Source: an uncultured bacterium
Lineage (GTDB): Bacteria > Patescibacteriota > Minisyncoccia > Phycocordibacterales > UBA9973
Direction: 5' to 3'
Assembly: GCA_903929735.1 (NCBI GenBank)
Contig: CAIYVW010000022.1
Coordinates: forward strand, 1 to 59,398
Length of the DNA stretch: 59,398 nucleotides
In this document: positions 12,618 to 25,232 of the stretch, one piece after another
Layout: the number at the start of each line of letters is the position of its first letter
Position numbering within the stretch: position 1 is the stretch's first letter
The notes under the pieces: generated by a model
The model's database searches: none
What the model was told of the DNA's origin: nothing
Seen by the model: the letters and a program-made list of their open reading frames with translations, nothing else
Position numbers and translations under genes: made by a program

Positions 12618-13994
12618 TTAAAACTTACTTTTTATAAAATTAATAACTTCCTCAATTTTAACTCTATCTTGTTTACCTGTATCACGATCTCGAATAGTAA
12701 CTTCATTATCTGTTAAAGTTTCAAAGTCTATAACTATACACCAAGGTGTTCCTATCTCATCTTGTCTTCTGTAGCGTTTACCAATGTTTCCATTATCATC
12801 CCAAACAACCCAACCAAATTCTTTCTTTAAATCCTTGAAAACATTTTTTGCATAAGTGACAAGTTCTGGTTTATTCTTTAAAAGTGGAGAGACACATGCT
12901 TTATAAGGAGCAATAGAAGGAGGTAATTTCAAATACACTCTTGTATTTTCATCCTCCCCTTCTTCTCTATAAGAAGAACATAAAGTAGCTAAGATTGCTC
13001 TATCTACACTTATAGTAGGCTCTATAACATGAGGTATAAATTTTTCTCCTGTTGCATCATCTAGCATCCACATAGACTCTCCTGAAAATTCTTGATGTCT
13101 TTTTAAATCAAAATCACCTCTGTGCGCTAGGCCTGTGAGTTCTTTTATCCCAAAAGGATATTCGAATTCTAAATCGACTGTCTTTCTACTATAATGAGCT
13201 CTAGCTTGCTCTGGATGTTCTAAAGCATGAAGTCTTGAAGTCTCAATACCTATTTTAGAAAGCCATTCTTTTTGTTCTAAAAGAAAATTATCAAAATAAG
13301 CCTCCCAAGGAGAAGATGGATGAATAAAATATTCAAATTCCATTATTTCAAATTCACGTAATCTGTAAATAAAATCACGTGGAGTTATTTCATTTCTGAA
13401 AGCTTTTCCCACTTGAGCAATACCAAAAGGAACCTTAGGAGATAAAGATTGTAAAACATTTTTAAAATTAACAAACATACTTTGAGCTTCTTCTGGTCGT
13501 AAAAAAGTATGAACAGAAGTTTCTTCTACTGCTCCCATTTTTGTCTCAAGCATAAGATTAAATCTACGAACATCAGAAAAAGAATTACCATCTGGACTTT
13601 TTAATCCAAGTTCTTTAATCTTTTTATCCATTTCATCCACTGTCAATTTCTCGGTATTTATACCTGCATCTTCTAGTAAATGATCCGCTCTGTATCTTTT
13701 CTTTGTTATAAGATCATCTACTAATGGGTCTATAAATTCACTAGTATGTCCTGATGCATCCCAAACTCTTGGATGCATTAAAATAGGAGTATCTATAAGA
13801 TAAATATTTTCCCTACTTCTTACAAAATATTCGATCCATGAATCTTCTATATTCTTTTTTAATAAAGAACCTAATGGACCATAATCATAAGTTCCAGCAA
13901 GACCTCCATATATCTCAGATCCTGGATAGATAAAACCTCTTCTTTTACAAAGTGATATAATCTTCTCCATTAATTTTTCATCTTTTTCTTGCAT
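12618..13994 (-). CDS. glyQS: Glycyl-tRNA synthetase, alpha2 (GlyQS) type
   Basis: Class II aaRS with GGLAGTYDYGPLG and FRNEITPRDFIYRLREFE motifs, plus a C-terminal anticodon-binding domain (GKRYRRQDEIGTPWCI). Confidence 0.92.
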   Translation of the reverse strand: MQEKDEKLMEKIISLCKRRGFIYPGSEIYGGLAGTYDYGPLGSLLKKNIEDSWIEYFVRSRENIYLIDTPILMHPRVWDASGHTSEFIDPLVDDLITKKRYRADHLLEDAGINTEKLTVDEMDKKIKELGLKSPDGNSFSDVRRFNLMLETKMGAVEETSVHTFLRPEEAQSMFVNFKNVLQSLSPKVPFGIAQVGKAFRNEITPRDFIYRLREFEIMEFEYFIHPSSPWEAYFDNFLLEQKEWLSKIGIETSRLHALEHPEQARAHYSRKTVDLEFEYPFGIKELTGLAHRGDFDLKRHQEFSGESMWMLDDATGEKFIPHVIEPTISVDRAILATLCSSYREEGEDENTRVYLKLPPSIAPYKACVSPLLKNKPELVTYAKNVFKDLKKEFGWVVWDDNGNIGKRYRRQDEIGTPWCIVIDFETLTDNEVTIRDRDTGKQDRVKIEEVINFIKSKF

Positions 13995-14019
13995 CTTATT
14001 TTAAAATATTAATTTGTAA

Positions 14020-15891
14020 TTATTGAACAACTCGATCAAAACCAGTTTGGAAATTCGGATCATCTGAAATATCTGTATTAATAGATTGCCTCTTATCTTT
14101 CACTAAAGTACCAGTGAAAACATCAGTACCAGAAAGGAATATTTCTTTCATGAGCTGAGGAACACTTCCTACCTGAGACAAAGATGGATTAAGAGCTATC
14201 GTAAATGAAACTTCTCTATTACTACCTCCACCTATATTTGCCCTAGCCGAACCTATATTCCATATCACCTCATTAGTTACTTGATTAAACTGAATGTTTT
14301 CTGTATGAGAAGAACTACCAATCCATTTAACATAGCCAGGAAGGACAGAACGAGCTACTGCTCCTGATATAGCATTGGTGCCATTCGATAATGTCCAAGT
14401 GACACTATATTGAGTTTCTGATTCTGCTTTAGGAGGAAAAGGACCTGATTTGTATAAAGCTGAAGAAGCTATTTGGAAATTAGATTCTATTTTTACTATT
14501 TTCTTTGAAAAATTATTAACTTCAGTATAAGTAGATCCTAAAGTTGGCTGGCGCCCCTTAATACTTACGTCTAAACCAAGTTGAGGATTTTTGATACTAC
14601 TCTGAGCTCCTAACAAAGGAATAGACTTTAAACTAAAGCTTACTTCACCTTTTCCTCCTGGTTCTATATCAGACAAAGAAGGAGTAGAATTTTTATCCCA
14701 AATAATACGATTGTTTAAAGAATCGAAAAATCCTTCATTTGAAGTAACCAACGATTTATCATAAGCATTTCCACTCAAATTTGCAATAATTTGTCCGTCT
14801 GTGATTCTACTAGATAGATTATTAGCCCAATCTATTTTTACATTTACAGGACTATTGGGAGATGCTGTATCATCGACTAGAATATTTGCTTCTATTATAG
14901 GCTTCACTACAGTAACTGTATGAAGTAGAGAATTATAAACAACATTAATTGTAGACTTATCAGAAGGTTTAACAGTACCAGCATAAACATGGAATACTTG
15001 TTGATCTTGATCTTGTCCTACTATTCTACCAGTAACAACTATAGGAATAGGATTAGATAAATCTAAACCTTCGAGACTCCAAACAGAATTTCCAAAGGAT
15101 GGGGCAGGAACAGCACTTTCAAATATAAAATTATTTGGATATGTAATTTGCATCATTATATTATTATCTGGCAATTTAGTATTTAATGTTGCCATAATTT
15201 TAAATGAAACAGGTTGATTTGAACTTACAGTATCTGGAGCTTCAATAGTTAAAGAAAGGGGGGAAGAACTTATGTTTACTATATATTCTTTACTCTTTGT
15301 AAAAATTGCATTTGATCCTTCTGGATGATAATCTAAATCTATTTTTATACTTCTATTTGACTTTTCATCTCCGAATAAAATTACTTTTATATTTTTAGTT
15401 ACTGTTTCTCCTGGCTTTATTGTACCAATATTCATTCGAGGTAATCTTGTATAATCAGAAGCACTATCACTAGCTCCACTAGGATAAGAGACCATTAGAT
15501 TAGAAAGCTCAAGACTTGCTTTATTATGATTAACTATTTCTATTTGAAGAGGTAGCTCTTCTCCACCTTTAGTAAAAGCATTTCCCATAACAGTTATATC
15601 TATATTATCACTAGAAACTGAAGAACTTCCTGTGTAGAACATATACAAAGCAAAACCAATTGCTATAAAAAAGAATATTATAGAAATAATAAAGAATTTT
15701 TTAAATACTGAAGTTTTAGGTTTTCTCATTTTATTTAGTGAAGATTCTGTCTCGTCTTTTTTTTTCCATTCAACTTCCACCTTATGACCTATTGGATGTA
15801 AAATACCTTCTCTATTTCTGTGTGTTACAGTATCCTCCCTTTCGTAAAGTTTATGTTTTATATCTTCTATTTTATGATTATCTTCTGACAT
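14020..15891 (-). CDS. Hypothetical membrane-anchored protein with a large beta-rich extracytoplasmic region
   Basis: 623 aa. A charged N-terminus, one TM helix (FFIISIIFFFIAIGFALYMFY), then about 530 aa rich in S/T/N/V with repeated beta-sandwich-like periodicity. No family recognised. Confidence 0.5.
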   Translation of the reverse strand: MSEDNHKIEDIKHKLYEREDTVTHRNREGILHPIGHKVEVEWKKKDETESSLNKMRKPKTSVFKKFFIISIIFFFIAIGFALYMFYTGSSSVSSDNIDITVMGNAFTKGGEELPLQIEIVNHNKASLELSNLMVSYPSGASDSASDYTRLPRMNIGTIKPGETVTKNIKVILFGDEKSNRSIKIDLDYHPEGSNAIFTKSKEYIVNISSSPLSLTIEAPDTVSSNQPVSFKIMATLNTKLPDNNIMMQITYPNNFIFESAVPAPSFGNSVWSLEGLDLSNPIPIVVTGRIVGQDQDQQVFHVYAGTVKPSDKSTINVVYNSLLHTVTVVKPIIEANILVDDTASPNSPVNVKIDWANNLSSRITDGQIIANLSGNAYDKSLVTSNEGFFDSLNNRIIWDKNSTPSLSDIEPGGKGEVSFSLKSIPLLGAQSSIKNPQLGLDVSIKGRQPTLGSTYTEVNNFSKKIVKIESNFQIASSALYKSGPFPPKAESETQYSVTWTLSNGTNAISGAVARSVLPGYVKWIGSSSHTENIQFNQVTNEVIWNIGSARANIGGGSNREVSFTIALNPSLSQVGSVPQLMKEIFLSGTDVFTGTLVKDKRQSINTDISDDPNFQTGFDRVVQ

Positions 15892-15914
15892 GGGTTTTAT
15901 TATACCATAAATGA

Positions 15915-16499
15915 TTAAAGTTGACTCTCATTTATAGCTTTATTAATATGGGATATTATTGACCTTTTTTCTTTTAATAATAATTCTGTTCTATTCAAAT
16001 CTATAGAACCTCCAAGATAATCTGATAACTTTAAAGAGTCCCCGATGTAACCTAATGAATTCATTATTCGTAATACTAAATGTAATTCAAGAGCTTCCCT
16101 CGCAGAAGATTCTATATTCATATCATCAAGCAAATAAAGCACTTGGGTAAAATCATCAAATATTTTTTCATTGGATTCCTCTCCGTCACAAAGTCTTTCT
16201 AGAAGAGAGCTTACATGAACAATAATAAGCAAAGAACTTCTAGAAGTTCTAGCAAAAGGAAAAGAAGAAATATTCTTAGCTGAAGTTACTCTCCATATAT
16301 CTTTTCCTCTGACTAAGTCTATAGTGGCATATGAAAAATCCTGTAAAGAAAAGCGTAACTTAGATTTATGCAATCTTATTCCTTGAACCATGGCACGCAC
16401 AAGACCCATCTCACGAGTATAAATAGTGAGCATTTTATTGGCTTCTCCTTTATTGCGAGAGCCCAATATAAATCCATGAGTGTGATAAATATGGTGCAT
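15915..16499 (-). CDS. recO: DNA repair protein RecO (short form)
   Basis: N-terminal OB-fold pattern GFILGSRNKGEANKMLTIYTREMGLVRAMVQGIRLHKSKL. At 194 aa it is shorter than the typical RecO. Confidence 0.65.
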   Translation of the reverse strand: MHHIYHTHGFILGSRNKGEANKMLTIYTREMGLVRAMVQGIRLHKSKLRFSLQDFSYATIDLVRGKDIWRVTSAKNISSFPFARTSRSSLLIIVHVSSLLERLCDGEESNEKIFDDFTQVLYLLDDMNIESSAREALELHLVLRIMNSLGYIGDSLKLSDYLGGSIDLNRTELLLKEKRSIISHINKAINESQL

Positions 16500-16508
16500 A
16501 AATAATTA

Positions 16509-17321
16509 TTAATTTTTCATATTTTTACCTAATTTTCTAAATGATCCCTTCCCGTAAGTTTTTTCAATTAATCTAGCTATTGGTAAAAGATTTCCATTTA
16601 TATCTGCTTCAAAAAATAACTTTTTTATTTTTTCCTTCGAATTAAAACTATCTTTATTTTTTTCCAATAAATCATCAGAAAATTCTTCAAATAAATCAAG
16701 GAGTTTAATTCTGGGCGAATCAAAAATATATTCTTCCACTTCTTGTTTATCAAAAAGGTTTGAGTTCTTAATTTTTTCTTCAAAAAATTTTCTACAAAAA
16801 TAATCATTTAATGTTTCATTAATTAAATTAAAATATTTTTCTCCATTAATAAAAACAGTGACACCAGACCTACGATTTACATAATAGCCTTCTTCATCTA
16901 GATTAATTGATGAAAAATCTTTAAGATGATATAGCTCATGAAATAATCTTAGTGAAAAAATAACATCATTTGGATTTCTGTCTACAATAAATGCACCATT
17001 TTGTAAACTAGCAGAACCCTCGAAGGCCACTCCCTTTGTAAGATTTTTCACTCCTTCAACAGGCATAATATGGATATTTTCATATTTGATTTCATTTATA
17101 TTTTCTCTAAAATTTAAAAGATATTCATCTAAACTTTTTTGAGAAAAATCTATTAGTTGCTTATCTCTAGGTGTCTTTTCTAGTTCTCCTTCTACTTTTT
17201 CTATGCCAAGATCAGACAATACAGATACAGTATTCTCTTTGTCTGTATTATTACCTACAACTCTATCTATATGTCCAATTTTGGATAATTTTTCCATGCT
17301 ATATTTCTTCTTCCTTACCAA
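16509..17321 (-). CDS. Hypothetical protein with an HExxH motif (possible zinc metallopeptidase)
   Basis: LFHELYHLKDF contains HELYH; no other family signature. The start overlaps the upstream gene by 23 nt. The alternative start at Met9 (17297) removes the overlap. Confidence 0.5.
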   Translation of the reverse strand: MVRKKKYSMEKLSKIGHIDRVVGNNTDKENTVSVLSDLGIEKVEGELEKTPRDKQLIDFSQKSLDEYLLNFRENINEIKYENIHIMPVEGVKNLTKGVAFEGSASLQNGAFIVDRNPNDVIFSLRLFHELYHLKDFSSINLDEEGYYVNRRSGVTVFINGEKYFNLINETLNDYFCRKFFEEKIKNSNLFDKQEVEEYIFDSPRIKLLDLFEEFSDDLLEKNKDSFNSKEKIKKLFFEADINGNLLPIARLIEKTYGKGSFRKLGKNMKN

Positions 17322-17937
17322 TTTCTAACTTTTTAAATAAAATATTATCTTCTTTTAAAATCATCTCTGGTATCTTCCATGCAAAAGAAGCAAAATCTTG
17401 CAATATAGCATCATGCACGGGGAAACAAATCCTTGGTCTTATATTCTTCGCATATTCTATTGCATCTTTCAATTTCATCCATGGTCCAACAACTGGTAAT
17501 GCTAAAATATCTACATTCAAATCAGGATAATGAAAAGAATCTCCTCCGTAACATAGACTATCTACCATGTATCCGGTATTTTGAACTTTACCAAAGTCTT
17601 CATATATTTCTGCGTGATTATCACCAAAAGCAACTATATTAACTCCTTCTATATGATACTTATCACCTTCTTCAACTTTTATATATGGAATATTATTAGT
17701 ATCAAGAATCTTTCCTACTGAAGTATTTGTTATCACTATTGCTCTTGGATTATTCTTTAAAACATCTTTCAGGGATTCTACATGTAAGTGATCTTGGTGC
17801 TCATGAGTAATAATAATAGCATTAATATTCTTCTCTCCTACTTGAAGCATAGAAAAAGACCCTGGATCAGTCATAATTCTAATACCATTCTTTGGTTCCA
17901 TCACGAAGCAACAATGTCCTAGCTTTTTAATCTTCAT
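17299..17937 (-). CDS. MBL-fold metallo-hydrolase
   Basis: Motif IIITHEHQDHLH (HxHxDH) and downstream His/Asp ligands. Starts 4 nt after the ileS stop. Confidence 0.75.
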   Translation of the reverse strand: MKIKKLGHCCFVMEPKNGIRIMTDPGSFSMLQVGEKNINAIIITHEHQDHLHVESLKDVLKNNPRAIVITNTSVGKILDTNNIPYIKVEEGDKYHIEGVNIVAFGDNHAEIYEDFGKVQNTGYMVDSLCYGGDSFHYPDLNVDILALPVVGPWMKLKDAIEYAKNIRPRICFPVHDAILQDFASFAWKIPEMILKEDNILFKKLEIGKEEEI

Positions 17938-17941
17938 TCTT

Positions 17942-20900
17942 CTATTTTACCAGATTTAATATAAATACTAAATCATCTATTTTAACTTCTTGTCCATTAT
18001 TTTCTTTTATGAGTAAATCCTTAGCTCCTACAGATTTTAATAAATCAGCCTTAAATTTATTTATCATTTCTCCACCTTTTACTTCTGTAGAGATTTCCAA
18101 AGTTATAATATCATTGGGGTTTAATCCATTCTTTTTTCTCATATCTTGAACTGCTCTTACTAGCTCACGATAGTTACCCTCCTGTTTTAATTCTTCTGTA
18201 ATTTTTATATCAAGCTCTATACTTTTAGTTTCTCCTAAAATATGTTTTATTTCTTTAACATTTAATTCATCTTTAACAATATCAAAAAAATCTTCTTTTA
18301 ATTCATAACCAGTAAGATTCAAGCTTTGTAGGGGCTGACGAACAGGAATCCCTGCCTTTTGTCTAGCTTGAAGTCCTAAAGTGACAACTTCTCTAACTTC
18401 TTTCATTTCTTTAATTACAGTCTTACTATACACTACGAGTTCTGGCCACTTTACAAGATGTATACTTTCTAAATCATTATTTGTTTTTAGTTTTAGCCAA
18501 ATATCTTCTGAAGCAAAAGGTGCAAATGGAGCCATTAAAACAGCTAGATTTTTAAGAACAAAATACAAAGTTTGCTTTGCTTCTGTATCTCCATCTTTTA
18601 ATCTTTCTCTAGAGCGACGGACATACCATGTAGATAAATCATCTATAAATTCACGAATAGCCCGAACTGGTTCTAACATTCTGTATGAATCTAAATTAGA
18701 CGTCGTCACTTCAACAAGTTCACTCAAACGAGTATTTATCCACTGATCCAAAACATTTTCTGATTTCTTATATTCTAAAATTTCTAATTTAGGGTCTCTG
18801 TATAATTCATAAAATGCAATTACGTTGTAAAGTAAATTAAAAACTTTATTATGAAGTTCGGAAACAGTTTTTTCATCAAAACTTTTTGTATCTCCTGGCT
18901 GATTTACTCCATACATCCATAAACGCAAAGTATCAGCACCATACTTATCCATCATTATTATAGGATCTACAACATTTCCAAGAGACTTACTCATCTTTTT
19001 ACCATTACCATCAAGCAAAAGCCCTAAACATATAACATTCTTATAAGCTTTACCCTTACCCATTAAGACTCCTACTGCATGAAGAGTATAGAACCATCCA
19101 CGAGTCTGATCCATAGCCTCACTTATATAATCTGCCGGATAAGAACCTCTCTCTATTAAATCTTTATTTTCAAAAGGATAATGATCTTGAGAAAATGGCA
19201 TTGTCCCTGAGTCTAACCAAACATCCATAACTTCTTTTTCTCTTTTTAAATTACTACCACAAGAACAAATCAACTCTACTTCATCTATGTATGGTTTATG
19301 TAAATCAAGTTCATAATTTTCATTATGTGGTATCGGTGTATGATCTAACTCACGAACTTCAGCATTTTTTAGATAATTAAAATTATGCAACATTTCTAAA
19401 GATTCTTCTGAATCAAGACCCATAGTTCCAGCAACAGCAAGCCAGCATGGTCCACCATGAGTACTTAAGAGAATATTTTTATTTTCGTATTTACTATCTA
19501 AATCACGGATTAAATCCATTGTCCTTTTCTTAATATCATTCCATGATTCATTCCCTTCACGAGTTTTATAAAAATAATCTACTTTATTTGGAAATTCTGT
19601 ATGATACTCTTGCCAAGTCTTACCTTCATAATCAGGTAGTACCATTTCTCTTAAAGAATCACTATATATAATAGACTCTTTATCTATACCTAATATACTA
19701 GAAACAATATCTGAAGTTTCTCTTGCTCTCTTAATTGGTGAGCTTATTATCAAATCAATTTTTTTATCTTTTAATCCTTCTGCTGATTCTTTAACTTGAG
19801 ATTTACCTTTTTCAGTTAAACCATGAATACTTTCAAGAGAGGTGCTTATAATATCACTAAGGTTATTCTCTGCTTCGCCGTGACGCATTACAAAATATTT
19901 ATTAGTCGACTTTTTAGTTTTTGATTTCAAATCTGTAATACTTCCTATTATTTCTCTTTTATTACAAGAATTACAAACCCAAACAGGAAGTGGTGTGCCC
20001 CAATATCTTTCACGAGATATAGCCCAGTCTTTAATATCCTTTAACCATTCACCAAATCTACCTTCTTTAATATAAGATGGTTCCCAATTTATTCCTTCAT
20101 TCTCTTTTACAAGTTCATCTTTAAGCGAAGACATTCTAATATACCAAGAATCACGAGCATAATATATAAGAGCTGTCTTGCAACGCCAACAGTGAGGATA
20201 TGAGTGCTCATACTTTTCTTTTTTAAATAAAAGTCCTCGATGTGCTAAATCTTTAATTATATCTACAGAAACATCTTCATCTCGAACGAACCTTCCGGTT
20301 AGAAAATCTGTTCCTTTTAAAAATTTACCATCAAGTCCCACCATGTGATGCTTTGGTAACCCTATTTCATTCCCTAATATAAAGTCATCAACACCATACA
20401 TGACAGCAGTATGAACAACACCAGTGCCATCTTCAGTAGTAACAAATGAAGCAGGATAAACCCTAAAAGCTTTATCCAATTTTTGCTTCTCTAAATCAGA
20501 AATAGTATTAGAAAGATAAGTATAAAGAGGTTCATATTCTAAACCAATTAAATCTGAACCTTTGAATTCTTCTACTATTTGATATTCTCCTTCTATTACA
20601 GAGAGACGAGATTTAGCTAAAATAAAGAATTCATTTTCTTTATTTATTTTTACATAATCTATGTCTTTACCTACTGCCAAAGCGACATTACCTGGTAAAG
20701 TCCAAGGAGTTGTTGTCCAAGCAAGAATATACGTATCTTCAGAGGTCCAACCTGAATCTTCCTTCAGATGTTCCACCTTTGAAGATTTTTTTACCTTAAA
20801 CTTCGCATATATAGATAAATCCTTCACATCAACGTACCCCTGAGCAAGCTCATGAGAAGAGAGAGTAGTACCACAACGTGGACACCAAGGAACTACCTTA

Positions 20901-21424
20901 TAATCTTTATAAAGTAATTTTTTATCATCAACATTTTTTATTACATTCCAAACTGATTCAATATATTTATTGTGGTATGTTACATAAGCATTCTTCTGGT
21001 CTACCCAATAGCCAATACGCTCTGTAAACTTCTCCCATAGATCAGTATATTCCCAGACACTTTCCTTACACTCTTTATTAAATTGAGCGATTCCATATTC
21101 TTCTATGGCTTTCTTAGAAGTAAGACCTAATTTCTTTTCAACCTGAAGTTCAACAGGAAGCCCGTGAGTATCCCACCCACCCTTACGAGCAACATGATAA
21201 CCTTTCATAGTTTTATATCTTGGTATAACATCTTTAAAAGCACGAGCTTCTAAATGATGAATTCCCGGTTTACCATTAGCAGTAGGAGGTCCTTCATAAA
21301 AAACATACTCACCCATAGGTGATTCCTTTTTCAAACTCTTCTCAAAAATTTCATTATCTTTCCAAAATTTTAGTATTATTTCTTCTCTTAACGCTGCTGT
21401 TGATTTTTGATTTTTATCTTCCAT
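17942..21424 (-). CDS. ileS: Isoleucyl-tRNA synthetase carrying an inserted histidine-phosphatase (PGAM-like) domain
   Basis: PPTANGKPGIHHLEARAFKD (HIGH-type), editing-domain motifs TTPWTLPGN and GTGVVHTAVMYG, and KKMSKSLGN. An in-frame ~230-aa insert holds RHGEAENN, SPIKRARET and STHGG between VCNSCNK and CSCGSN. Confidence 0.9.
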   Translation of the reverse strand: MEDKNQKSTAALREEIILKFWKDNEIFEKSLKKESPMGEYVFYEGPPTANGKPGIHHLEARAFKDVIPRYKTMKGYHVARKGGWDTHGLPVELQVEKKLGLTSKKAIEEYGIAQFNKECKESVWEYTDLWEKFTERIGYWVDQKNAYVTYHNKYIESVWNVIKNVDDKKLLYKDYKVVPWCPRCGTTLSSHELAQGYVDVKDLSIYAKFKVKKSSKVEHLKEDSGWTSEDTYILAWTTTPWTLPGNVALAVGKDIDYVKINKENEFFILAKSRLSVIEGEYQIVEEFKGSDLIGLEYEPLYTYLSNTISDLEKQKLDKAFRVYPASFVTTEDGTGVVHTAVMYGVDDFILGNEIGLPKHHMVGLDGKFLKGTDFLTGRFVRDEDVSVDIIKDLAHRGLLFKKEKYEHSYPHCWRCKTALIYYARDSWYIRMSSLKDELVKENEGINWEPSYIKEGRFGEWLKDIKDWAISRERYWGTPLPVWVCNSCNKREIIGSITDLKSKTKKSTNKYFVMRHGEAENNLSDIISTSLESIHGLTEKGKSQVKESAEGLKDKKIDLIISSPIKRARETSDIVSSILGIDKESIIYSDSLREMVLPDYEGKTWQEYHTEFPNKVDYFYKTREGNESWNDIKKRTMDLIRDLDSKYENKNILLSTHGGPCWLAVAGTMGLDSEESLEMLHNFNYLKNAEVRELDHTPIPHNENYELDLHKPYIDEVELICSCGSNLKREKEVMDVWLDSGTMPFSQDHYPFENKDLIERGSYPADYISEAMDQTRGWFYTLHAVGVLMGKGKAYKNVICLGLLLDGNGKKMSKSLGNVVDPIIMMDKYGADTLRLWMYGVNQPGDTKSFDEKTVSELHNKVFNLLYNVIAFYELYRDPKLEILEYKKSENVLDQWINTRLSELVEVTTSNLDSYRMLEPVRAIREFIDDLSTWYVRRSRERLKDGDTEAKQTLYFVLKNLAVLMAPFAPFASEDIWLKLKTNNDLESIHLVKWPELVVYSKTVIKEMKEVREVVTLGLQARQKAGIPVRQPLQSLNLTGYELKEDFFDIVKDELNVKEIKHILGETKSIELDIKITEELKQEGNYRELVRAVQDMRKKNGLNPNDIITLEISTEVKGGEMINKFKADLLKSVGAKDLLIKENNGQEVKIDDLVFILNLVK

Positions 21425-21583
21425 ATATTTTTAAAATATTATTTATAATAATTAAGTTTATAAATGTGTAGTAAATAACTTTCAAGTAAGCCACTGCGGA
21501 GGCTCATGAGCCGAGCAATAAAGAAAATTTCAGTAGAAATTTATCCATTGGCGAATCCAAAAATATTTTTACGGTACATAAAT

Positions 21584-21780
21584 AAAAAACTCGTCCACAT
21601 ACAACAATATTAAAATTGTTATATAAGGACGAGCTTCCAATGAAACACGTGGTACCACCTCATTTACTTCTCATTTAAGGGTTCTACTTCATGCGTTAGG
21701 TCTTGCCTAACGATGTTTCTTCCCTATGCTCCAAGGTGATAACCTCTTCACTGCATATGTTTAAATAATAACACTAAAAG
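21584..21780 (-). promoter_or_regulatory. T-box leader (tRNA-sensing riboswitch) upstream of ileS, including its terminator
   Basis: The minus strand reads AAATGAGGTGGTACCACGTG (plus 21646..21665), matching the conserved T-box sequence. It is followed by terminator stem CTCGTCC...GGACGAG (21590..21633) and TTTTTT. A candidate Ile specifier AUC lies at 21712..21714. Confidence 0.7.
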
Positions 21781-21792
21781 TAAAATTTGCAA
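21765..21792 (-). promoter_or_regulatory. Putative sigma-70-type promoter of the ileS leader
   Basis: Minus strand: TTGCAA (21787..21792), a 16-nt spacer, then TATTAT (21765..21770) preceded by TGt. Sits immediately upstream of the leader. Confidence 0.4.
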
Positions 21793-21800
21793 GAAAACTT

Positions 21801-22343
21801 CTATTCTTCAAATTTAATTATTCCATTATATTTTTTATTCATTACCATACCATTATATTTAGGTAATTCTATCTTATTCCCTACTTCTAATTTATTAGGA
21901 TAAGAGAAAAATATTCTTGTTTTAAAATCTATTTTTGCAAGTTCATCACCAAATACACAATTATCTATATCACCAGAAGAAATAGTAAGCTTATAATTTT
22001 TTAATTTATCAAATAATTTAGCACTATAATTCTCCATATTTTTCAAAAGAACAATTGTATTATCTAAATCACCTATTTGATCTAATTTCTCTATAAAGAC
22101 GCTTTCTTCTCCAGAGTCTACAATTATTGCATAATCATTTACTTTATCTCCGAGTTGTCTTCTGAAATCTTCCTTCGCAGCAGGATAAGCAGTTAAAAAC
22201 AGAACTCTATTATTATTCTCAAATAAACTTGTAACTAATGAAATACTAAAAAGAGAAGAACCTGTCTTACAAGCACCTGTTATAAGTATTGGGAAATCTT
22301 CTTTATTGAAAACTATTTCTTTGTCATTTATTAAAATTTTCAT
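21801..22343 (-). CDS. Hypothetical protein with a degenerate P-loop-like motif
   Basis: 180 aa. ILITGACKTGSS resembles Walker A but lacks the canonical GK[ST]. IIVDS is Walker-B-like. No family recognised. Confidence 0.45.
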   Translation of the reverse strand: MKILINDKEIVFNKEDFPILITGACKTGSSLFSISLVTSLFENNNRVLFLTAYPAAKEDFRRQLGDKVNDYAIIVDSGEESVFIEKLDQIGDLDNTIVLLKNMENYSAKLFDKLKNYKLTISSGDIDNCVFGDELAKIDFKTRIFFSYPNKLEVGNKIELPKYNGMVMNKKYNGIIKFEE

Positions 22344-22345
22344 AA

Positions 22346-24046
22346 TTACATTCTATTTGGAACTTCTATCCCCAAAAGCCATAGACCATTTTTCATAGTT
22401 TGAGTGAAAGCTTTTGTTACAGCAATGTTGTAAATCATATCAGGATTTTCTTCATCTATAAGCTTAGTATTGCCGTACCAACTATTAAACATACGAGCAA
22501 GTTCTAGTAAATATCCTACTAGATGATGAGGTGCCCACTCTTTCACTGAACGTTCGATAATATCAGGAAATTGACAAATCATTTTTTCAAAATCACTTTG
22601 TTCTCCCTTTGAAGAAATATTTCCATTAACTTTATATCCAAGACTGGAAGCTTTCTCTAAAACTGAATTAGCACGAACAACACTATATTGTAAATAAGGA
22701 CCAGAATCACCTTCAAAAGATAAAGATGTTTCTGGGTCAAAATTTATATTCTTACCTGCCATAGCTCGAAGTATTGTGAATTTGAGAGCAGATATCGCAA
22801 TAACCTGACAATCTTCTTCTTTCAAATCTTTTGATTTTTCTTTTACATCTTCAATAATTAAATCTAAAATATCTTTAGCTAAAGGAACTCCACCTAAACG
22901 AGAAGACATTTTTTGACCCTTAAAAGACATGCGTCCATGAGTACGATGAATACTTTTATTTGACCAATCTTTATTTATTTTCTCTGCAGAATCTAAAACA
23001 ACATTAAAATGTGATATCTGCTGATGGTCAGTTATGAATATAGAAATATCTGGATTATATTTTTTAAATTTAATATCTAAAAGTCCCAAGTCCTTAGCCT
23101 CATAAGTAGGATTACCTTGGCTATTTATGAAAACAGCTGTATTTATATATTTCTTAGATTCATCTGGTATATAGACAATAGCTCCTTCACTTTCTGTAAA
23201 AACACTAGGGGTATACTTTGATACAATCTCCTTACCGACAACACCCGCTTCACTTTCAAAAATATAATCATTAAATTTTGAACCTAAAATACCTGTAATA
23301 TTTTCAAAATAATCCATGTTAAATTTCTTACACGAATTATAAACATCTAGTTCAATAGATGCTTTATTAAGATAGATGTTATCAGCAATTTCTTTTACGC
23401 GAGGCTGAATACTTATATCTTCATCATATCTTTTAGTTCCCTCCACATAAGCATCACCAAGCAAAACTATATCATTAGGCTTGTAAATTTCACCATTAAC
23501 AACATTTTTTTCTAAAATTATAAAAATTGCTTTTGCTATACCTAAAGATATATCTGAGGGAAATGAAATCACTTCAACTTCTGCGCCTGAAAATTTAGCT
23601 AATCTACTTATGGATTCTCCTATAGCATTGTTCATAACATGACCGATATGAAACGGCTTAAAAAGATTTGGACTAGAATGTTCCACAAGTACTTTTTTAT
23701 TCAAATGGTTTTTTGTTTTTCCCCAGTTTTCCTTTTCATTTAAGATTCTATTTATATTGTCAGCAAAAAATTCTCTAGATAAATAGAAATTTATAAATCC
23801 AGGTGAAGCTACTTCTATCTTATTTATTTCCCCAAAGCCTTGCTTTGGGAGACTCTTTAATTCTATGGTTATTTTTTCTGCTAACTCTTTTGGACTGATT
23901 TTTAACTGCTTAGAATAAACCATTGCTACATTTGAAGAATAATCACCATTTTTAAAATCTTCAGGAATTTCAACTGAAAAATTAGCCCCTTCTATTCCTA
24001 AGGTTTTCAAAACTTCTTGTATTTGTTTTTGTATTTTTTCTTTCAT
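22346..24046 (-). CDS. argS: Arginyl-tRNA synthetase
   Basis: N-terminal Arg_tRNA_synt_N-like domain, HSSPNLFKPFHIGHVMN (HIGH-type), KMSSRLGG (KMSKS-like) and a C-terminal DALR-type anticodon-binding domain ending in RM. Confidence 0.92.
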   Translation of the reverse strand: MKEKIQKQIQEVLKTLGIEGANFSVEIPEDFKNGDYSSNVAMVYSKQLKISPKELAEKITIELKSLPKQGFGEINKIEVASPGFINFYLSREFFADNINRILNEKENWGKTKNHLNKKVLVEHSSPNLFKPFHIGHVMNNAIGESISRLAKFSGAEVEVISFPSDISLGIAKAIFIILEKNVVNGEIYKPNDIVLLGDAYVEGTKRYDEDISIQPRVKEIADNIYLNKASIELDVYNSCKKFNMDYFENITGILGSKFNDYIFESEAGVVGKEIVSKYTPSVFTESEGAIVYIPDESKKYINTAVFINSQGNPTYEAKDLGLLDIKFKKYNPDISIFITDHQQISHFNVVLDSAEKINKDWSNKSIHRTHGRMSFKGQKMSSRLGGVPLAKDILDLIIEDVKEKSKDLKEEDCQVIAISALKFTILRAMAGKNINFDPETSLSFEGDSGPYLQYSVVRANSVLEKASSLGYKVNGNISSKGEQSDFEKMICQFPDIIERSVKEWAPHHLVGYLLELARMFNSWYGNTKLIDEENPDMIYNIAVTKAFTQTMKNGLWLLGIEVPNRM

Positions 24047-24073
24047 TATTAATTGGTAATTAGTAATCAGTAA

Positions 24074-24496
24074 TTATTTCCTACCAGTGCTACCAAATGC
24101 ACCTTCTCCCCTTGCTGATTCACTTAATATATCAGTAACTTCTAATTCTGCAATAGCTACTGGAAAAATAACCACTTGAGCAACTTTATCACCCTCTTCT
24201 ACAGTATAAGGCTTATCTGAAAGATTCACCAGATGAGTATTATATTCCCCTCTATATCCAGCATCGAAAACTCCTCCCATTGAGTGGAGCCCTGCTTTCG
24301 ATATACTACTTTTGTCTTTAACTATAGCTGCATAACCTACAGGAAACTCCATCGCAAACCCATGCCAGAAGAAATGATGCCCTTCTGGCTCTATAGTATA
24401 AGTCTCCATAGCATACATATCCATACCTACATCTCCTTCGTGATGATACTTAGGTAATATTGCCCCTTCTTTCAATTTTTTAATTTTGATTTTCAT
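24074..24496 (-). CDS. dut: dUTP diphosphatase (trimeric dUTPase)
   Basis: Motifs GDVGMDMYA, GVFDAGYRGE and the C-terminal RGEGAFGSTG. Confidence 0.88.
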   Translation of the reverse strand: MKIKIKKLKEGAILPKYHHEGDVGMDMYAMETYTIEPEGHHFFWHGFAMEFPVGYAAIVKDKSSISKAGLHSMGGVFDAGYRGEYNTHLVNLSDKPYTVEEGDKVAQVVIFPVAIAELEVTDILSESARGEGAFGSTGRK

Positions 24497-24497
24497 A

Positions 24498-25232
24498 CTA
24501 TTTTAAAATTTTCTTTACTTGCTTATACATCTCTTCATGTATGTCTTCACGCGTACGTAATTTATTTTTATCTACGCAATCAACCTTACACCAATTTGCT
24601 TGATTATCTGCTAACCACATAGCACTCTTGTATGAATTTATCATAAAATTTTTATCTTTCTCGTGAACATCTTTTTTATTTCCTAGATAGGCTCTATCCG
24701 TATTTTTATTTCTTTCTTTTAAAAGTTTCGTCACAAAAGAAATCGGTAAGCTAAGATAAAATACAACATGAGGTCTAGGAATACCAAAAACCCTGTGCTC
24801 CATATCATCCAGCCATCTTATGAAATCTTGCCTCTTTTTTATATTACTTATTTTTCCTCCTTGATGTATTTGGTTTGCACTCGCATAACGATTAGCTATA
24901 ACTATATAACCCTTCTTGATCCAGCCTTCGATCTTATCTTTTGATTCAAATCTATCGGCTGCGTAAAGAACAGAAGCAATCTTTGGATGAATATTCACAA
25001 AATTATAATACTGCTCAGAAAGACAGTGACCAACAAAAGCCCCAAAGAAATTCTTGTAATACTCAGGAAAGTCTACCATTCTAACTTCATAACCATCACC
25101 CTTCAGTCTATTAATAAGTAAATCTACTTGAGTAGCTTTTCCACTTCCATCCGTACCATCTATTACTATTAACTTTCCTTTTTGTTTTTTATTCTTTATC
25201 ATAATAATTCTTTCCTGTTTTATATGAATCAA
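24498..25232 (-). CDS. tmk: Thymidylate (dTMP) kinase-like nucleotide kinase
   Basis: P-loop VIDGTDGSGKATQ, plus ADRF and NRYASANQIHQ segments typical of dTMP kinases. The likely true start is Met11 (25202), which reduces the overlap with the NUDIX gene. Confidence 0.75.
   Translation of the reverse strand: MIHIKQERIIMIKNKKQKGKLIVIDGTDGSGKATQVDLLINRLKGDGYEVRMVDFPEYYKNFFGAFVGHCLSEQYYNFVNIHPKIASVLYAADRFESKDKIEGWIKKGYIVIANRYASANQIHQGGKISNIKKRQDFIRWLDDMEHRVFGIPRPHVVFYLSLPISFVTKLLKERNKNTDRAYLGNKKDVHEKDKNFMINSYKSAMWLADNQANWCKVDCVDKNKLRTREDIHEEMYKQVKKILK

What the first reader, a model, noticed from the sequence alone, without database searches (positions are those of the whole stretch)
19276..19960. 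Complete histidine-phosphatase (PGAM-like) domain inserted in-frame inside isoleucyl-tRNA synthetase
- **Intact ORF:** the ileS ORF is uninterrupted (1160 aa). It has all the class I and editing signatures (PTANGKPGIHH, TTPWTLPGN, GTGVVHTA, KMSKS).
- **Location:** between the two Cys pairs of the zinc knuckle (VWVCNSCNK at about 19965, ELICSCGSN at about 19262) lie about 230 residues. As I recall, Thermus-type IleRS has only a short linker here, leading into the DLH(K/R)PYID motif.
- **Domain identity:** the insert has every catalytic hallmark of histidine phosphatase superfamily branch 1, in the correct order: MRHGEAENN, SSPIKRARET, LREM..DYEGKTW and LLSTHGGP.
- **Implication:** this looks like a catalytically competent phosphatase looped out of the synthetase body, which I have not seen described.
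- **Possible roles (speculative):** acting on tRNA 3'-phosphate or cyclic-phosphate ends, on Ap4A-type by-products, or on phosphorylated inhibitors.
Basis: partly seen in the sequence, partly recalled or inferred. Interest (0 to 1): 0.8.

Follow-up and report, generated by a model that had tools for sequence, protein, structure and literature searches.

The report
Phosphatase built into isoleucyl-tRNA synthetase
The gene for isoleucyl-tRNA synthetase, the enzyme that loads isoleucine onto tRNA, carries a complete and apparently active phosphatase inside one of its surface loops; related bacteria keep the same phosphatase as a separate gene next door, so the two enzymes probably work as a pair whose joint purpose is not yet known.

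Summary
Window 17942..21424 (-) is one intact 1160-aa ileS ORF of the IleRS2 type. Residues 501-698 (nt 19331..19924) are a complete branch-1 histidine phosphatase (Pfam His_Phos_1, E = 3.7e-31). It sits in the tip loop of the CP3 zinc knuckle, where solved IleRS structures have about 3 residues.

It is not a chimeric assembly. All 120 closest homologues carry it, as do the best 80 of at least 549 matches in Patescibacteria species genomes. The catalytic residues R-H-R-E/D-H are kept in 355 of 355 aligned copies.

New here: this phosphatase subfamily is tied to ileS. In 76 of 78 evaluable metagenome loci it is either a separate ~190-aa gene directly upstream of an insert-less ileS (51 loci) or embedded at the same CP3 loop (25 loci). 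Trees indicate at least two independent switches between these arrangements.

My best reading (confidence 0.5) is a dedicated phosphohydrolase held 1:1 with IleRS. The substrate is unknown. The main rival is an unrelated housekeeping phosphatase that moved in from the neighbouring gene.

I found no description of it in the searchable literature. Novelty: new variant of a known kind. Interest 0.74.

The parts
17942..21424 (-). ileS ORF, 1160 aa. An IleRS2-type isoleucyl-tRNA synthetase with an embedded phosphatase.
   Evidence: ORF. (TIGR00392, 852.9 bits against cut-off 621.4). (best matches are IleRS2 8c8w/8c8v, 1ile and yeast IleRS).
21254..21268 (-). Class I signature region PGIHH (residues 53-57). 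The tetrapeptide GIHH is the non-canonical GXHH form of HXGH.
   Evidence: position. (P53 and H56 invariant; G54, I55 and H57 at 90% or more in 119 homologues). PMC10485003 read (G/AXHH occurs in IleRS2 and confers mupirocin hyper-resistance).
20405..20713 (-). CP1 editing-domain motifs TTPWTLPGN (238-246) and GTGVVHTA (333-340).
   Evidence: positions. (T237-L243, G333, G335, V337 and H338 invariant).
19997..20029 (-). DWAISRERYWG (466-476), the CP2-CP3 linker. In yeast IleRS this segment lines the pocket for the tRNA 3' end.
   Evidence: position. (invariant D466-W475). PMC7955072 read (the homologous ARDWNVSRNRYWG lines the reveromycin/tRNA CCA-end site).
19925..19984 (-). CP3 N-arm (residues 481-500) with the first Cys pair, C484 and C487. 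It ends in ...GSITDLK.
   Evidence: AF2 model strands 481-484 and 490-492, helix 496-502, pLDDT about 91.
19331..19924 (-). Inserted histidine phosphatase domain, residues 501-698 (Pfam match 511-694 = nt 19343..19894).
   Evidence: His_Phos_1, E = 3.7e-31. (insert bounds). (translation). (pLDDT 91-96, alpha/beta fold). (profile matches PspA 4ij5 at 1.4e-30 and PhoE 1ebb at 4e-28).
19880..19885 (-). R514-H515 of the RHG motif. H515 is the predicted phospho-acceptor.
   Evidence: Invariant 120/120 and 355/355.
19727..19729 (-). R566, the second phosphate-binding arginine (SSPIKRARET).
   Evidence: 359/359 aligned.
19646..19648 (-). E593, the predicted proton donor (LREM).
   Evidence: 120/120. 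(E in 342, D in 17 of 361 aligned).
19457..19459 (-). H656, the second catalytic histidine (STHGG).
   Evidence: 120/120. (354/355 aligned).
19220..19330 (-). CP3 C-arm (residues 699-735), PHNENYELDLHKPYIDEVELICSCGSNLKREKEVMDV. It holds the second Cys pair, C720 and C722, and leads into the second half of the Rossmann fold.
   Evidence: translation.. (pLDDT 90-92).
18983..18997 (-). KMSKS loop (residues 810-814).
   Evidence: (K809-S814 invariant).
17951..18748 (-). Anticodon-binding domain (893-1033) and type-2 C-terminal domain DUF5915 (1068-1158).
21622..21760 (-). Probable T-box leader of ileS with a shortened stem I, followed by a terminator-like hairpin and a U-run (about 21578..21645).
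   Evidence: RF00230, 35.6 bits, E = 2.2e-6, below the gathering score of 93. (sequence, GGTGGTACCACG core). (core motif upstream of ileS in 31 of 86 embedded-type loci).

Best explanation
**Shown.**
- The gene encodes a full IleRS2-type isoleucyl-tRNA synthetase. It has the GXHH signature, KMSKS, the CP1 editing motifs and the anticodon domains.
- The tip loop of its CP3 zinc knuckle carries a complete histidine phosphatase (HP) of the PhoE/PspA/CobC type with every catalytic residue intact.
- This phosphatase belongs to a Patescibacteria subfamily, marked by N-x-Y-x-x-x-RHG near the N-end and (A/G)E.R.L at the C-end, that is tied to ileS.
- In some lineages it is a separate ~190-aa gene directly upstream of an insert-less ileS. 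In others, including this one, it is embedded in frame at the same CP3 loop.
- The switch between the two arrangements happened at least twice.

**Inferred.**
- The two proteins act as a 1:1 pair, and here the pair is hard-wired into one polypeptide.
- The phosphatase uses the standard mechanism of its superfamily. A terminal phosphoryl group is transferred to H515. R514, R566 and H656 hold the phosphate, and E593 acts as acid/base. The phospho-enzyme is then hydrolysed.
- Its most likely job is to remove a terminal phosphate from something that the synthetic site makes or must handle. My first choice is pyrophosphate or a nucleotide polyphosphate by-product of amino-acid activation. My second choice is a 2'/3'-phosphate that blocks the tRNA acceptor end.
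- The substrate is a guess. The dedicated pairing is the part I commit to.
For: **Domain identity and integrity.**

**Spread.**
- All 120 closest homologues have the domain.
- At least 549 hits were found in one-genome-per-species contigs. The best 80 are all embedded between the IleRS N- and C-parts.

**Link to ileS.**
- On 3 of 3 long contigs a solo HP gene lies 4-137 nt upstream of a 946-964-aa ileS, on the same strand.
- Of 80 metagenome loci, 51 have the solo gene adjacent and 25 have it embedded, giving 76 of 78 evaluable.
- The solo genes share the subfamily signature.

**Independent embedding.**
- The HP of embedded group E2 is 54% identical on average (66% maximum) to the solo genes, against 35% (43% maximum) to the HP of embedded group E1, which includes this window.
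- E2 nests among solo lineages in both the HP tree and the host tree.
- In 100 NJ bootstraps, a single clan holding all embedded forms appears in 2 (HP tree) and 0 (host tree).
- Junction sequences show insertion into the loop ...L(K/R)EKSG|..L.DLH(K/R)PY.

**Further in-frame HP copies.** They occur at a second IleRS site and in ValRS.

**Rigid junctions.** pLDDT is 83-92 around both junctions and pTM is 0.74.

**Position.** CP3 follows directly after the segment that lines the tRNA 3'-end pocket.
Against: - No substrate can be read from the sequence. The closest characterised relatives (PspA, PhoE, CobC) act on unrelated small molecules.
- The whole block argS-(HP)-ileS-x-recO-x-class II aaRS is conserved. 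Adjacency may therefore be inherited gene order, as it is for argS and recO, and not a sign of shared function.
- Gene fusions in these bacteria can be promiscuous. TsaC is fused to MGMT, TruB, GNAT, Nudix, 2H phosphoesterase and this HP.
- I could not obtain model coordinates, so the distance between the two active sites is unknown.
- The trees are neighbour-joining only, rooted at midpoint.
Confidence: 0.5

Rival explanations
1. The phosphatase is an independent housekeeping enzyme that is only hosted by IleRS. It has its own metabolic job, for example a broad sugar-phosphate or phosphoserine phosphatase, or the 'missing' phosphoglycerate mutase of Parcubacteria. It happened to lie next to ileS in an ancient gene block and was moved into a permissive loop. 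Both activities are kept because each is needed, with no mechanistic coupling.
For: - The conserved syntenic block also holds unrelated genes such as argS, recO, dut and tmk.
- TsaC fusions in Patescibacteria are promiscuous.
- CP3 varies in structure between IleRSs, so it is probably permissive (PMC7191050).
- The best characterised relatives are metabolic phosphatases.
- PMC7304191 reports phosphoglycerate mutase as absent from several shallow Parcubacteria clades, possibly because it is too divergent to detect.
- dPGM_arch is the best-scoring phosphatase-family model in NCBIfam.
Against: - Embedding happened at least twice at the same loop.
- More in-frame copies exist in IleRS and ValRS.
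- 76 of 78 loci keep the subfamily at ileS.
- All mutase and phosphatase equivalog models fall far below their cut-offs: dPGM_arch 90.5 against 225, PspA 42.4 against 350, CobC 71.6 against 162.9.
- From my own recollection of dPGM, the mutase-specific WRR and HGN motifs are absent. The sequence reads ...GKTWQEYH... and THGG.
Confidence: 0.33
2. The domain is a protein or inhibitor phosphatase that protects IleRS. It would reverse an inactivating phosphorylation of the synthetase, as HipA-type kinases impose on other synthetases, or it would destroy a phosphorylated inhibitor at the active site.
For: - The 1:1 tie to a single synthetase.
- The host enzyme carries the GXHH motif linked to antibiotic hyper-resistance, which suggests inhibitor pressure on this enzyme.
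- Some IleRS relatives carry a GNAT domain as well (NCBIfam NF040702).
- From my own knowledge, the superfamily includes protein phosphatases (SixA, PGAM5, Sts).
Against: - No kinase or toxin gene appears in the conserved neighbourhood.
- The SixA model scores 32.2 against a cut-off of 74.5.
- I know of no phosphorylated natural IleRS inhibitor.
Confidence: 0.07
3. The domain is a structural or ligand-sensing module with little or no turnover. The phosphatase fold would serve as a tRNA- or phosphate-binding platform, or as an allosteric sensor.
For: - The junctions are rigid and confidently modelled.
- The N-junction is lysine-rich, KSKTKKSGNKY.
Against: The full catalytic set, including the proton donor, is retained in essentially every copy over deep divergence. 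That is the pattern of an active enzyme.
Confidence: 0.08
4. It is an assembly chimera or a recent accidental insertion.
For: None found.
Against: - The identical protein is found in independent assemblies.
- It is present in all 120 close homologues and in hundreds of species genomes.
- Composition is continuous.
- It is under purifying selection.
Confidence: 0.01

Closest known systems
Type 2 isoleucyl-tRNA synthetase (P. megaterium IleRS2, PDB 8c8u/8c8v/8c8w; T. thermophilus IleRS, 1ile)
   Same: Same domain order and motifs. The phmmer E-value is 4.7e-242 and the model gives TM-scores of 0.73-0.85. It has a CP3 zinc knuckle like the Thermus enzyme. It has the GXHH signature described for part of IleRS2.
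   Different: These enzymes have about 3 residues where this protein has a 198-aa phosphatase.
Small branch-1 histidine phosphatases: PspA/iPSP1 of Hydrogenobacter (4ij5), PhoE of Geobacillus (1ebb, 1h2e), CobC (6nru, 6e4b)
   Same: Same fold family, same size (~190-210 aa) and same catalytic residues. Profile E-values are 1e-30 to 1e-23.
   Different: Those are free-standing enzymes with known small-molecule substrates. This one is a distinct subfamily below every equivalog cut-off and is bound to ileS by position or by insertion.
IleRS with an N-acetyltransferase domain (NCBIfam NF040702, ileS_w_GNAT)
   Same: A precedent for an extra catalytic domain carried inside an IleRS. One relative (P0196) has both HP and GNAT.
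   Different: The extra domain is different. The window protein scores 309.8 against a cut-off of 1999 and has no GNAT.
CP1 editing domain of class Ia synthetases, and the LeuRS editing insertion
   Same: A hydrolytic domain inserted into the connective polypeptide of the Rossmann fold. It acts on a product of the synthetic site, which is the classic case of a coupled insertion (PMC13114784).
   Different: CP1 is an esterase for mischarged tRNA and is universal in Ile/Val/LeuRS. The HP is a phosphoryl-transfer enzyme, restricted to one lineage, with an unknown substrate.
Bifunctional RNase H/acid phosphatase (Rv2228c type, NCBIfam NF005567) and mycobacterial MutT1 (Nudix + histidine phosphatase, NF052459)
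   Same: The same phosphatase family fused to a nucleic-acid or nucleotide enzyme (family hits). From my own knowledge, the MutT1 phosphatase domain hydrolyses a nucleotide phosphoanhydride, which shows that such chemistry is possible.
   Different: Those are end-to-end fusions, not an insertion into a catalytic core. The scores are far below the cut-offs (71.8 against 326).

Membership tests
Isoleucyl-tRNA synthetase (class Ia, TIGR00392) | Whole-protein score above the curated equivalog cut-off | tested here: met
   852.9 bits against 621.4, in two stretches split by the insert.
Isoleucyl-tRNA synthetase (class Ia, TIGR00392) | Class I signature motifs HXGH and KMSKS | tested here: met
   KMSKS is at 810-814. 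The first motif is the non-canonical GIHH at 54-57. That form is documented as functional in IleRS2 (PMC10485003).
Isoleucyl-tRNA synthetase (class Ia, TIGR00392) | CP1 editing domain with its Thr-rich and GTG.VH motifs | tested here: met
   TTPWTLPGN at 238-246 and GTGVVHTA at 333-340, invariant in 119 homologues. PDB editing-domain fragments match residues 196-411.
Isoleucyl-tRNA synthetase (class Ia, TIGR00392) | Charges tRNA-Ile with isoleucine | not testable with these tools
   Needs an enzyme assay. A T-box-like leader upstream is consistent with a housekeeping ileS.
IleRS2 (type 2, eukaryote-like) subgroup | Type-2 C-terminal domains instead of the IleRS1 zinc-binding domain, and closest relatives of type 2 | tested here: met
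   DUF5915 at 1068-1158. The best PDB hits are IleRS2 (809 bits), against 323 bits for IleRS1.
Histidine phosphatase superfamily, branch 1 (Pfam PF00300) | Score above the Pfam gathering threshold over nearly the full model | tested here: met
   108.7 bits against 21.7. Residues 511-694 cover model positions 2-180 of 194.
Histidine phosphatase superfamily, branch 1 (Pfam PF00300) | Catalytic core: RHG histidine, two arginines, second histidine, acidic proton donor | tested here: met
   R514, H515, R566, E593 and H656 are present. They are invariant in 120/120 and kept in 355/355 aligned domains.
Histidine phosphatase superfamily, branch 1 (Pfam PF00300) | Alpha/beta fold of the family | tested here: inconclusive
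   The AF2 model shows alternating strands and helices with pLDDT 91-96 over 501-698. The Foldseek run on the whole model returned only synthetase matches, and the domain was not searched on its own.
Histidine phosphatase superfamily, branch 1 (Pfam PF00300) | Phosphatase (or mutase) activity through a phospho-histidine intermediate | not testable with these tools
   Needs an assay of wild type against H515A.
Cofactor-dependent phosphoglycerate mutase (dPGM; NF038349 and other NCBIfam models) | Score above the equivalog cut-off | tested here: not met
   dPGM_arch scores 90.5 against 225 and GpmB 32.4 against 261. In the PDB profile search true mutases rank below PspA, PhoE and CobC.
Phosphoserine phosphatase PspA / alpha-ribazole phosphatase CobC / SixA | Score above the equivalog cut-off | tested here: not met
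   PspA 42.4 against 350, CobC 71.6 against 162.9, SixA 32.2 against 74.5.
IleRS with GNAT domain (NF040702); MupA/MupB resistance IleRS | Score above the 'exception' cut-off, and presence of a GNAT domain | tested here: not met
   309.8 against 1999; MupA 758 and MupB 751 against 1900. There is no acetyltransferase hit in Pfam.
IleRS-associated histidine phosphatase subfamily of Patescibacteria (defined here) | Signature N-x-Y-x-x-x-RHG and a C-terminal (N/T)(A/G)E.R.L strand, with the gene adjacent to or embedded in ileS | tested here: met
   N508, Y510 and N687-A-E-V-R-E-L are present in the window protein. Context counts are 76 of 78.

The most novel reading that the evidence does not exclude
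IleRS, and sometimes ValRS, of a large part of the Patescibacteria needs a dedicated phosphatase as a third active site. That would reveal a phosphate-removal step coupled to aminoacylation that has not been recognised in any synthetase. Candidates are on-enzyme hydrolysis of pyrophosphate or nucleotide polyphosphates, and healing of a phosphate-blocked tRNA acceptor end. Selection would have welded the partner into the CP3 loop more than once.
Probability: 0.3. Interest if true: 0.88.

Novelty: new variant of a known kind. Interest (0 to 1): 0.74.

Why it matters
Aminoacyl-tRNA synthetases are among the best-studied enzymes. Their known built-in hydrolytic activity is editing of mischarged products. 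Here a phosphoryl-transfer enzyme is kept with one synthetase across hundreds of species, as a neighbouring gene or as an insert in the catalytic core.

That points to one of two things. It may be an unrecognised accessory reaction in tRNA charging in ultra-small, host-dependent bacteria. Or it may be a clear natural case of a neighbouring gene being absorbed into a permissive loop of an essential enzyme.

There are also practical consequences.
- Annotation pipelines name the protein only as IleRS, so a whole phosphatase activity is hidden from metabolic reconstructions of these genomes.
- The CP3 tip is shown to tolerate a 200-residue domain, which is useful for engineering.

Tried and rejected
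1. **Single-sequence AlphaFold of the whole protein.** It gave pLDDT 31.6 and was useless. I repeated it with a 119-sequence alignment.
2. **Genome scan with an alignment of 21 divergent inserts.** I repeated it with a closer alignment.
3. **Assembly chimera.** Rejected.
4. **A second phosphatase copy nearby.** There is none in the 59-kb window or in the 80 genome loci.
5. **A decayed remnant of a former upstream phosphatase gene in the 377-nt gap before ileS.** There is none. The gap holds a T-box-like leader instead.
6. **A T-box upstream of solo-HP/ileS operons**, which would have shown co-regulation by tRNA-Ile. The core motif was found in 0 of 37 such loci, so this gives no support.
7. 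**Rosetta-stone argument from a TsaC-phosphatase fusion.** I dropped it as weak. Only 4 clusters carry it, and TsaC in these bacteria is fused to many unrelated enzymes.
8. **Conserved neighbours as a functional clue.** Only housekeeping genes turned up: argS, recO, a class II aaRS, dut, tmk and glyA.
9. **Filing as phosphoglycerate mutase, PspA, CobC or SixA.** All scores are below the cut-offs.
10. **My first assumption that the ValRS insert is also in CP3.** Corrected. In P0271/P0246 it lies after the DTWFSSG...LGWP segment. Only one of the P0121 copies is CP3-like.
11. **Nine literature searches.** None found a description.
Full report
**1. The observation**

The region lies in one uninterrupted ORF, window 17942..21424 on the minus strand, 1160 aa.

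Pfam finds the following:
- tRNA-synt_1 split into two stretches;
- His_Phos_1 at residues 511-694 (E = 3.7e-31, 108.7 bits against a gathering score of 21.7);
- Anticodon_1;
- DUF5915.

NCBIfam's ileS equivalog model scores 852.9 bits against a cut-off of 621.4. In the residue-by-residue alignment to P. megaterium IleRS2 (8c8w), query 2-500 pairs with chain 2-475 and query 699-1083 with chain 479-869. The extra segment is therefore residues 501-698 (nt 19331..19924), 198 aa replacing about 3. It lies between C484/C487 and C720/C722.

Published IleRS structures call this region the CP3 subdomain. The Thermus enzyme has a zinc motif there, and CP3 topology differs between IleRSs (PMC7191050).

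**2. It is real and old**

- GC content and skews are continuous across both junctions.
- The identical protein is encoded on contigs from independent ENA assemblies.
- The 120 best database homologues (64-100% identity, 1080-1270 aa) all carry PF00300. Where named, they come from Nomurabacteria, Paceibacterota or the Patescibacteria group.
Of these, 549 encode a relative.
- In all of the best 80 loci the phosphatase sits exactly between the IleRS N-part and C-part. These loci come from Nomura-, Yonath-, Taylor- and Zambryskibacteria, Paceibacteria, Minisyncoccia and the 693-kb RAAC4_OD1_1 contig.
- Most are single ORFs of more than 1100 aa.

**3. The phosphatase looks active**

- Across the 120 close homologues the insert evolves faster than its flanks. 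The mean frequency of the commonest residue is 0.60, against about 0.85 in the flanks.
- R514, H515, N521, S562, R566, E593, R634 and H656 are nevertheless invariant.
- I aligned 362 phosphatase domains from close homologues, 50%-identity cluster representatives and genome loci. R and H of RHG are present in 355 of 355 aligned copies, and the second Arg in 359 of 359. The acid is E in 342 and D in 17. The second His is present in 354 of 355.
- An AlphaFold2 model built with 119 sequences has pLDDT 82.6 and pTM 0.74. Over the insert pLDDT is 91-96, and around the two junctions it is 83-92.
- The low-confidence stretches are the mobile active-site loops, at 46-61, 747-762, 769-775 and the KMSKS loop.
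- The whole model matches IleRS2, Thermus IleRS and yeast IleRS with TM-scores of 0.73-0.85.

A profile of 21 divergent inserts matches these solved structures best:
- phosphoserine phosphatase PspA (4ij5, 1.4e-30);
- PhoE (1ebb/1h2e, 4e-28);
- CobC (about 1e-24).

True mutases rank lower. Every NCBIfam equivalog model of the family is far below its cut-off. I therefore file it as a member of the superfamily, closest to the PhoE/PspA/CobC group, and not as any named enzyme.

**4. The new finding: the subfamily is tied to ileS**

I searched 1.84 billion cluster representatives with the insert alone. This gave 1003 hits at E <= 1e-10. Most of the best 150 are IleRS with the insert at the same site, with N-part identity down to 36%. 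About 37 are free-standing ~190-aa proteins. These share N-x-Y before RHG and the C-terminal ...GE(L)RKL strand.

A search with one of them found 387 relatives, named as Patescibacteria where a name is given. On all three long contigs examined, the solo gene lies 4-137 nt upstream of a 946-964-aa ileS that has no phosphatase domain, on the same strand. The gene block there is argS-x-HP-ileS-x-recO-x-class II aaRS. The window has the same block: tmk-dut-argS-x-[leader]-ileS-x-x-recO-x-class II aaRS.

A metagenome scan with an alignment of solo proteins returned 80 loci:

| Arrangement | Loci |
|---|---|
| Solo gene directly upstream of an insert-less ileS (gap about -27 to +127 nt) | 51 |
| Phosphatase embedded in ileS | 25 |
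| Locus ends too soon to judge | 2 |
| Exceptions | 2 |

One exception (L100) is rearranged downstream of the phosphatase gene, with opposite-strand ORFs there. In the other (L143) the gene is flanked by reverse-transcriptase-like and GIY-YIG-like ORFs, with only 780 nt of downstream sequence. That makes 76 of 78 evaluable loci.

**5. History**

I compared 134 loci, 93 embedded and 41 solo. The embedded state falls into two groups:
- E1: 71 loci, including the window.
- E2: 22 loci.

| Comparison | Mean identity | Maximum identity |
|---|---|---|
| E2 phosphatase vs solo proteins | 54% | 66% |
| E2 phosphatase vs E1 phosphatase | 35% | 43% |
| E2 host N-part vs solo-lineage hosts | not quoted | 71% |
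| E2 host N-part vs E1 hosts | not quoted | 59% |

In 100 bootstrap NJ trees of a 41-taxon subsample, a clan holding all embedded forms appears twice (phosphatase tree) and never (host tree). The two arrangements have therefore interconverted at least twice. Because the shallow E2 group nests inside the broader solo diversity, the likelier direction is neighbour to insert.

The junctions fit this:
- Insert-less enzymes read ...GSI.EL(R/K)EKSG..L.DLHRPYID.
- E1 reads ...DLKSKTKKSG|N.YFVMRHG ... NAEVRELDF.P(I/L)|PHNENYELDLHKPYID.
- E2 reads ...DLL.QKFS|TNQYYILRHGQT ... RKI.YK.F|P....G.LDFHRPY.

Rarer variants are:
- IleRS with a second phosphatase before the anticodon domain;
- IleRS with an IS200-like domain plus phosphatase plus GNAT;
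- ValRS with one to four phosphatase copies at other loops.

**6. What it most likely does**

Shown:
- a complete synthetase;
- a complete phosphatase with a conserved catalytic set;
- a fixed, confidently modelled connection at the CP3 tip;
- a long-standing association of the two genes in two architectures, with repeated in-frame embedding.

Inferred: the two act as a 1:1 pair. CP3 follows directly after the DWAISRERYWG segment. Its yeast counterpart lines the pocket for the tRNA 3' end (PMC7955072).

Enzymes of this superfamily need a terminal phosphoryl group (established mechanism, my own knowledge). Plausible substrates are therefore:
- pyrophosphate or nucleotide polyphosphates made during activation;
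- a 2'/3'-phosphate on a damaged tRNA end;
- a phospho-residue on the synthetase;
- an unrelated metabolite.

I commit to 'dedicated phosphohydrolase partner of IleRS' at 0.5, with PPi or a nucleotide by-product as my first guess for the substrate.

The strongest counter-argument is that the whole gene block is conserved, so adjacency may be inheritance and not function. Fusions in these bacteria can also be indiscriminate. TsaC is joined to MGMT, TruB, GNAT, Nudix, 2H phosphoesterase and this phosphatase.

The hosted-enzyme rival therefore gets 0.33. One version of it would explain why phosphoglycerate mutase appears to be missing in shallow Parcubacteria clades (PMC7304191). However, the mutase models fail, and from my recollection of dPGM the mutase-specific residues are absent.

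**7. Comparison with what is known, and novelty**

Both parts belong to well-known families, and an IleRS carrying a GNAT domain already has an NCBIfam model. The new elements are:
- a phosphoryl-transfer enzyme inside the catalytic core of a synthetase;
- its restriction to a major lineage;
- the neighbour-or-insert duality.

Nine full-text searches and four relevant IleRS or domain-insertion papers gave no description. These include a 2026 IleRS phylogeny and a 2026 survey of domain insertions. The corpus excludes most subscription journals, so an earlier mention cannot be ruled out.

Verdict: real, conserved and undescribed. It is a new variant of a known kind, and its function is open.

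Noticed in passing
window 21578..21760 (-), upstream of ileS: T-box-like leader (RF00230, 35.6 bits, E = 2.2e-6, below the gathering score of 93). Stem I is very short, the GGTGGTACCACG core is present, and a terminator-like hairpin with a U-run follows. The core motif is found upstream of ileS in 31 of 86 embedded-type loci and in 0 of 37 solo-type loci.
   Followed up: partly
window 21254..21268 (-), residues 53-57: The class I signature motif is GIHH, not HXGH. It is conserved across the 119 homologues. This is the non-canonical G/AXHH form that PMC10485003 links to mupirocin hyper-resistance in IleRS2.
   Followed up: partly
proteins P0277-P0393: TsaC (threonylcarbamoyl-AMP synthase) of Patescibacteria is fused to many different domains. 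MGMT-like PF01035 is the most common. Others are TruB, His_Phos_1 (4 clusters), 2H/cyclic phosphodiesterase, GNAT, Nudix and methylpurine glycosylase.
   Followed up: no
proteins P0135, P0205, P0241 (1379-1419 aa); P0196: Some IleRS variants have two phosphatase domains, the second just before the anticodon-binding domain. The P0135 cluster occurs on contigs of up to 1.06 Mb. P0196 combines an IS200-like Y1 transposase domain, the phosphatase and a GNAT domain inside an IleRS.
   Followed up: partly
proteins P0121, P0246, P0271: Valyl-tRNA synthetases carry the same phosphatase subfamily. P0271/P0246 have one copy after the DTWFSSG...LGWP segment. P0121 has four copies, including one at a CP3-like position.
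   Followed up: partly
window 12618..25232 (-): Conserved housekeeping block tmk-dut-argS-(180-aa ORF)-ileS-(MBL-fold hydrolase)-(270-aa ORF)-recO-(623-aa ORF)-class II aaRS. The 180-aa, 270-aa and 623-aa ORFs have no Pfam match. The 623-aa family is present downstream of ileS in 61 of 80 genome loci.
   Followed up: partly
L143:2..838 and 1403..1738; L083:6815..6940: Reverse-transcriptase-like and GIY-YIG-like ORFs sit next to the phosphatase/ileS genes in a few loci. This suggests that mobile elements visit the region.
   Followed up: no
L020:4456..7032: In one genome locus the embedded-type ileS reading frame ends early (859 aa, C-part matched only to residue 240). This may be a frameshift, a pseudogene or an assembly error.
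   Followed up: no
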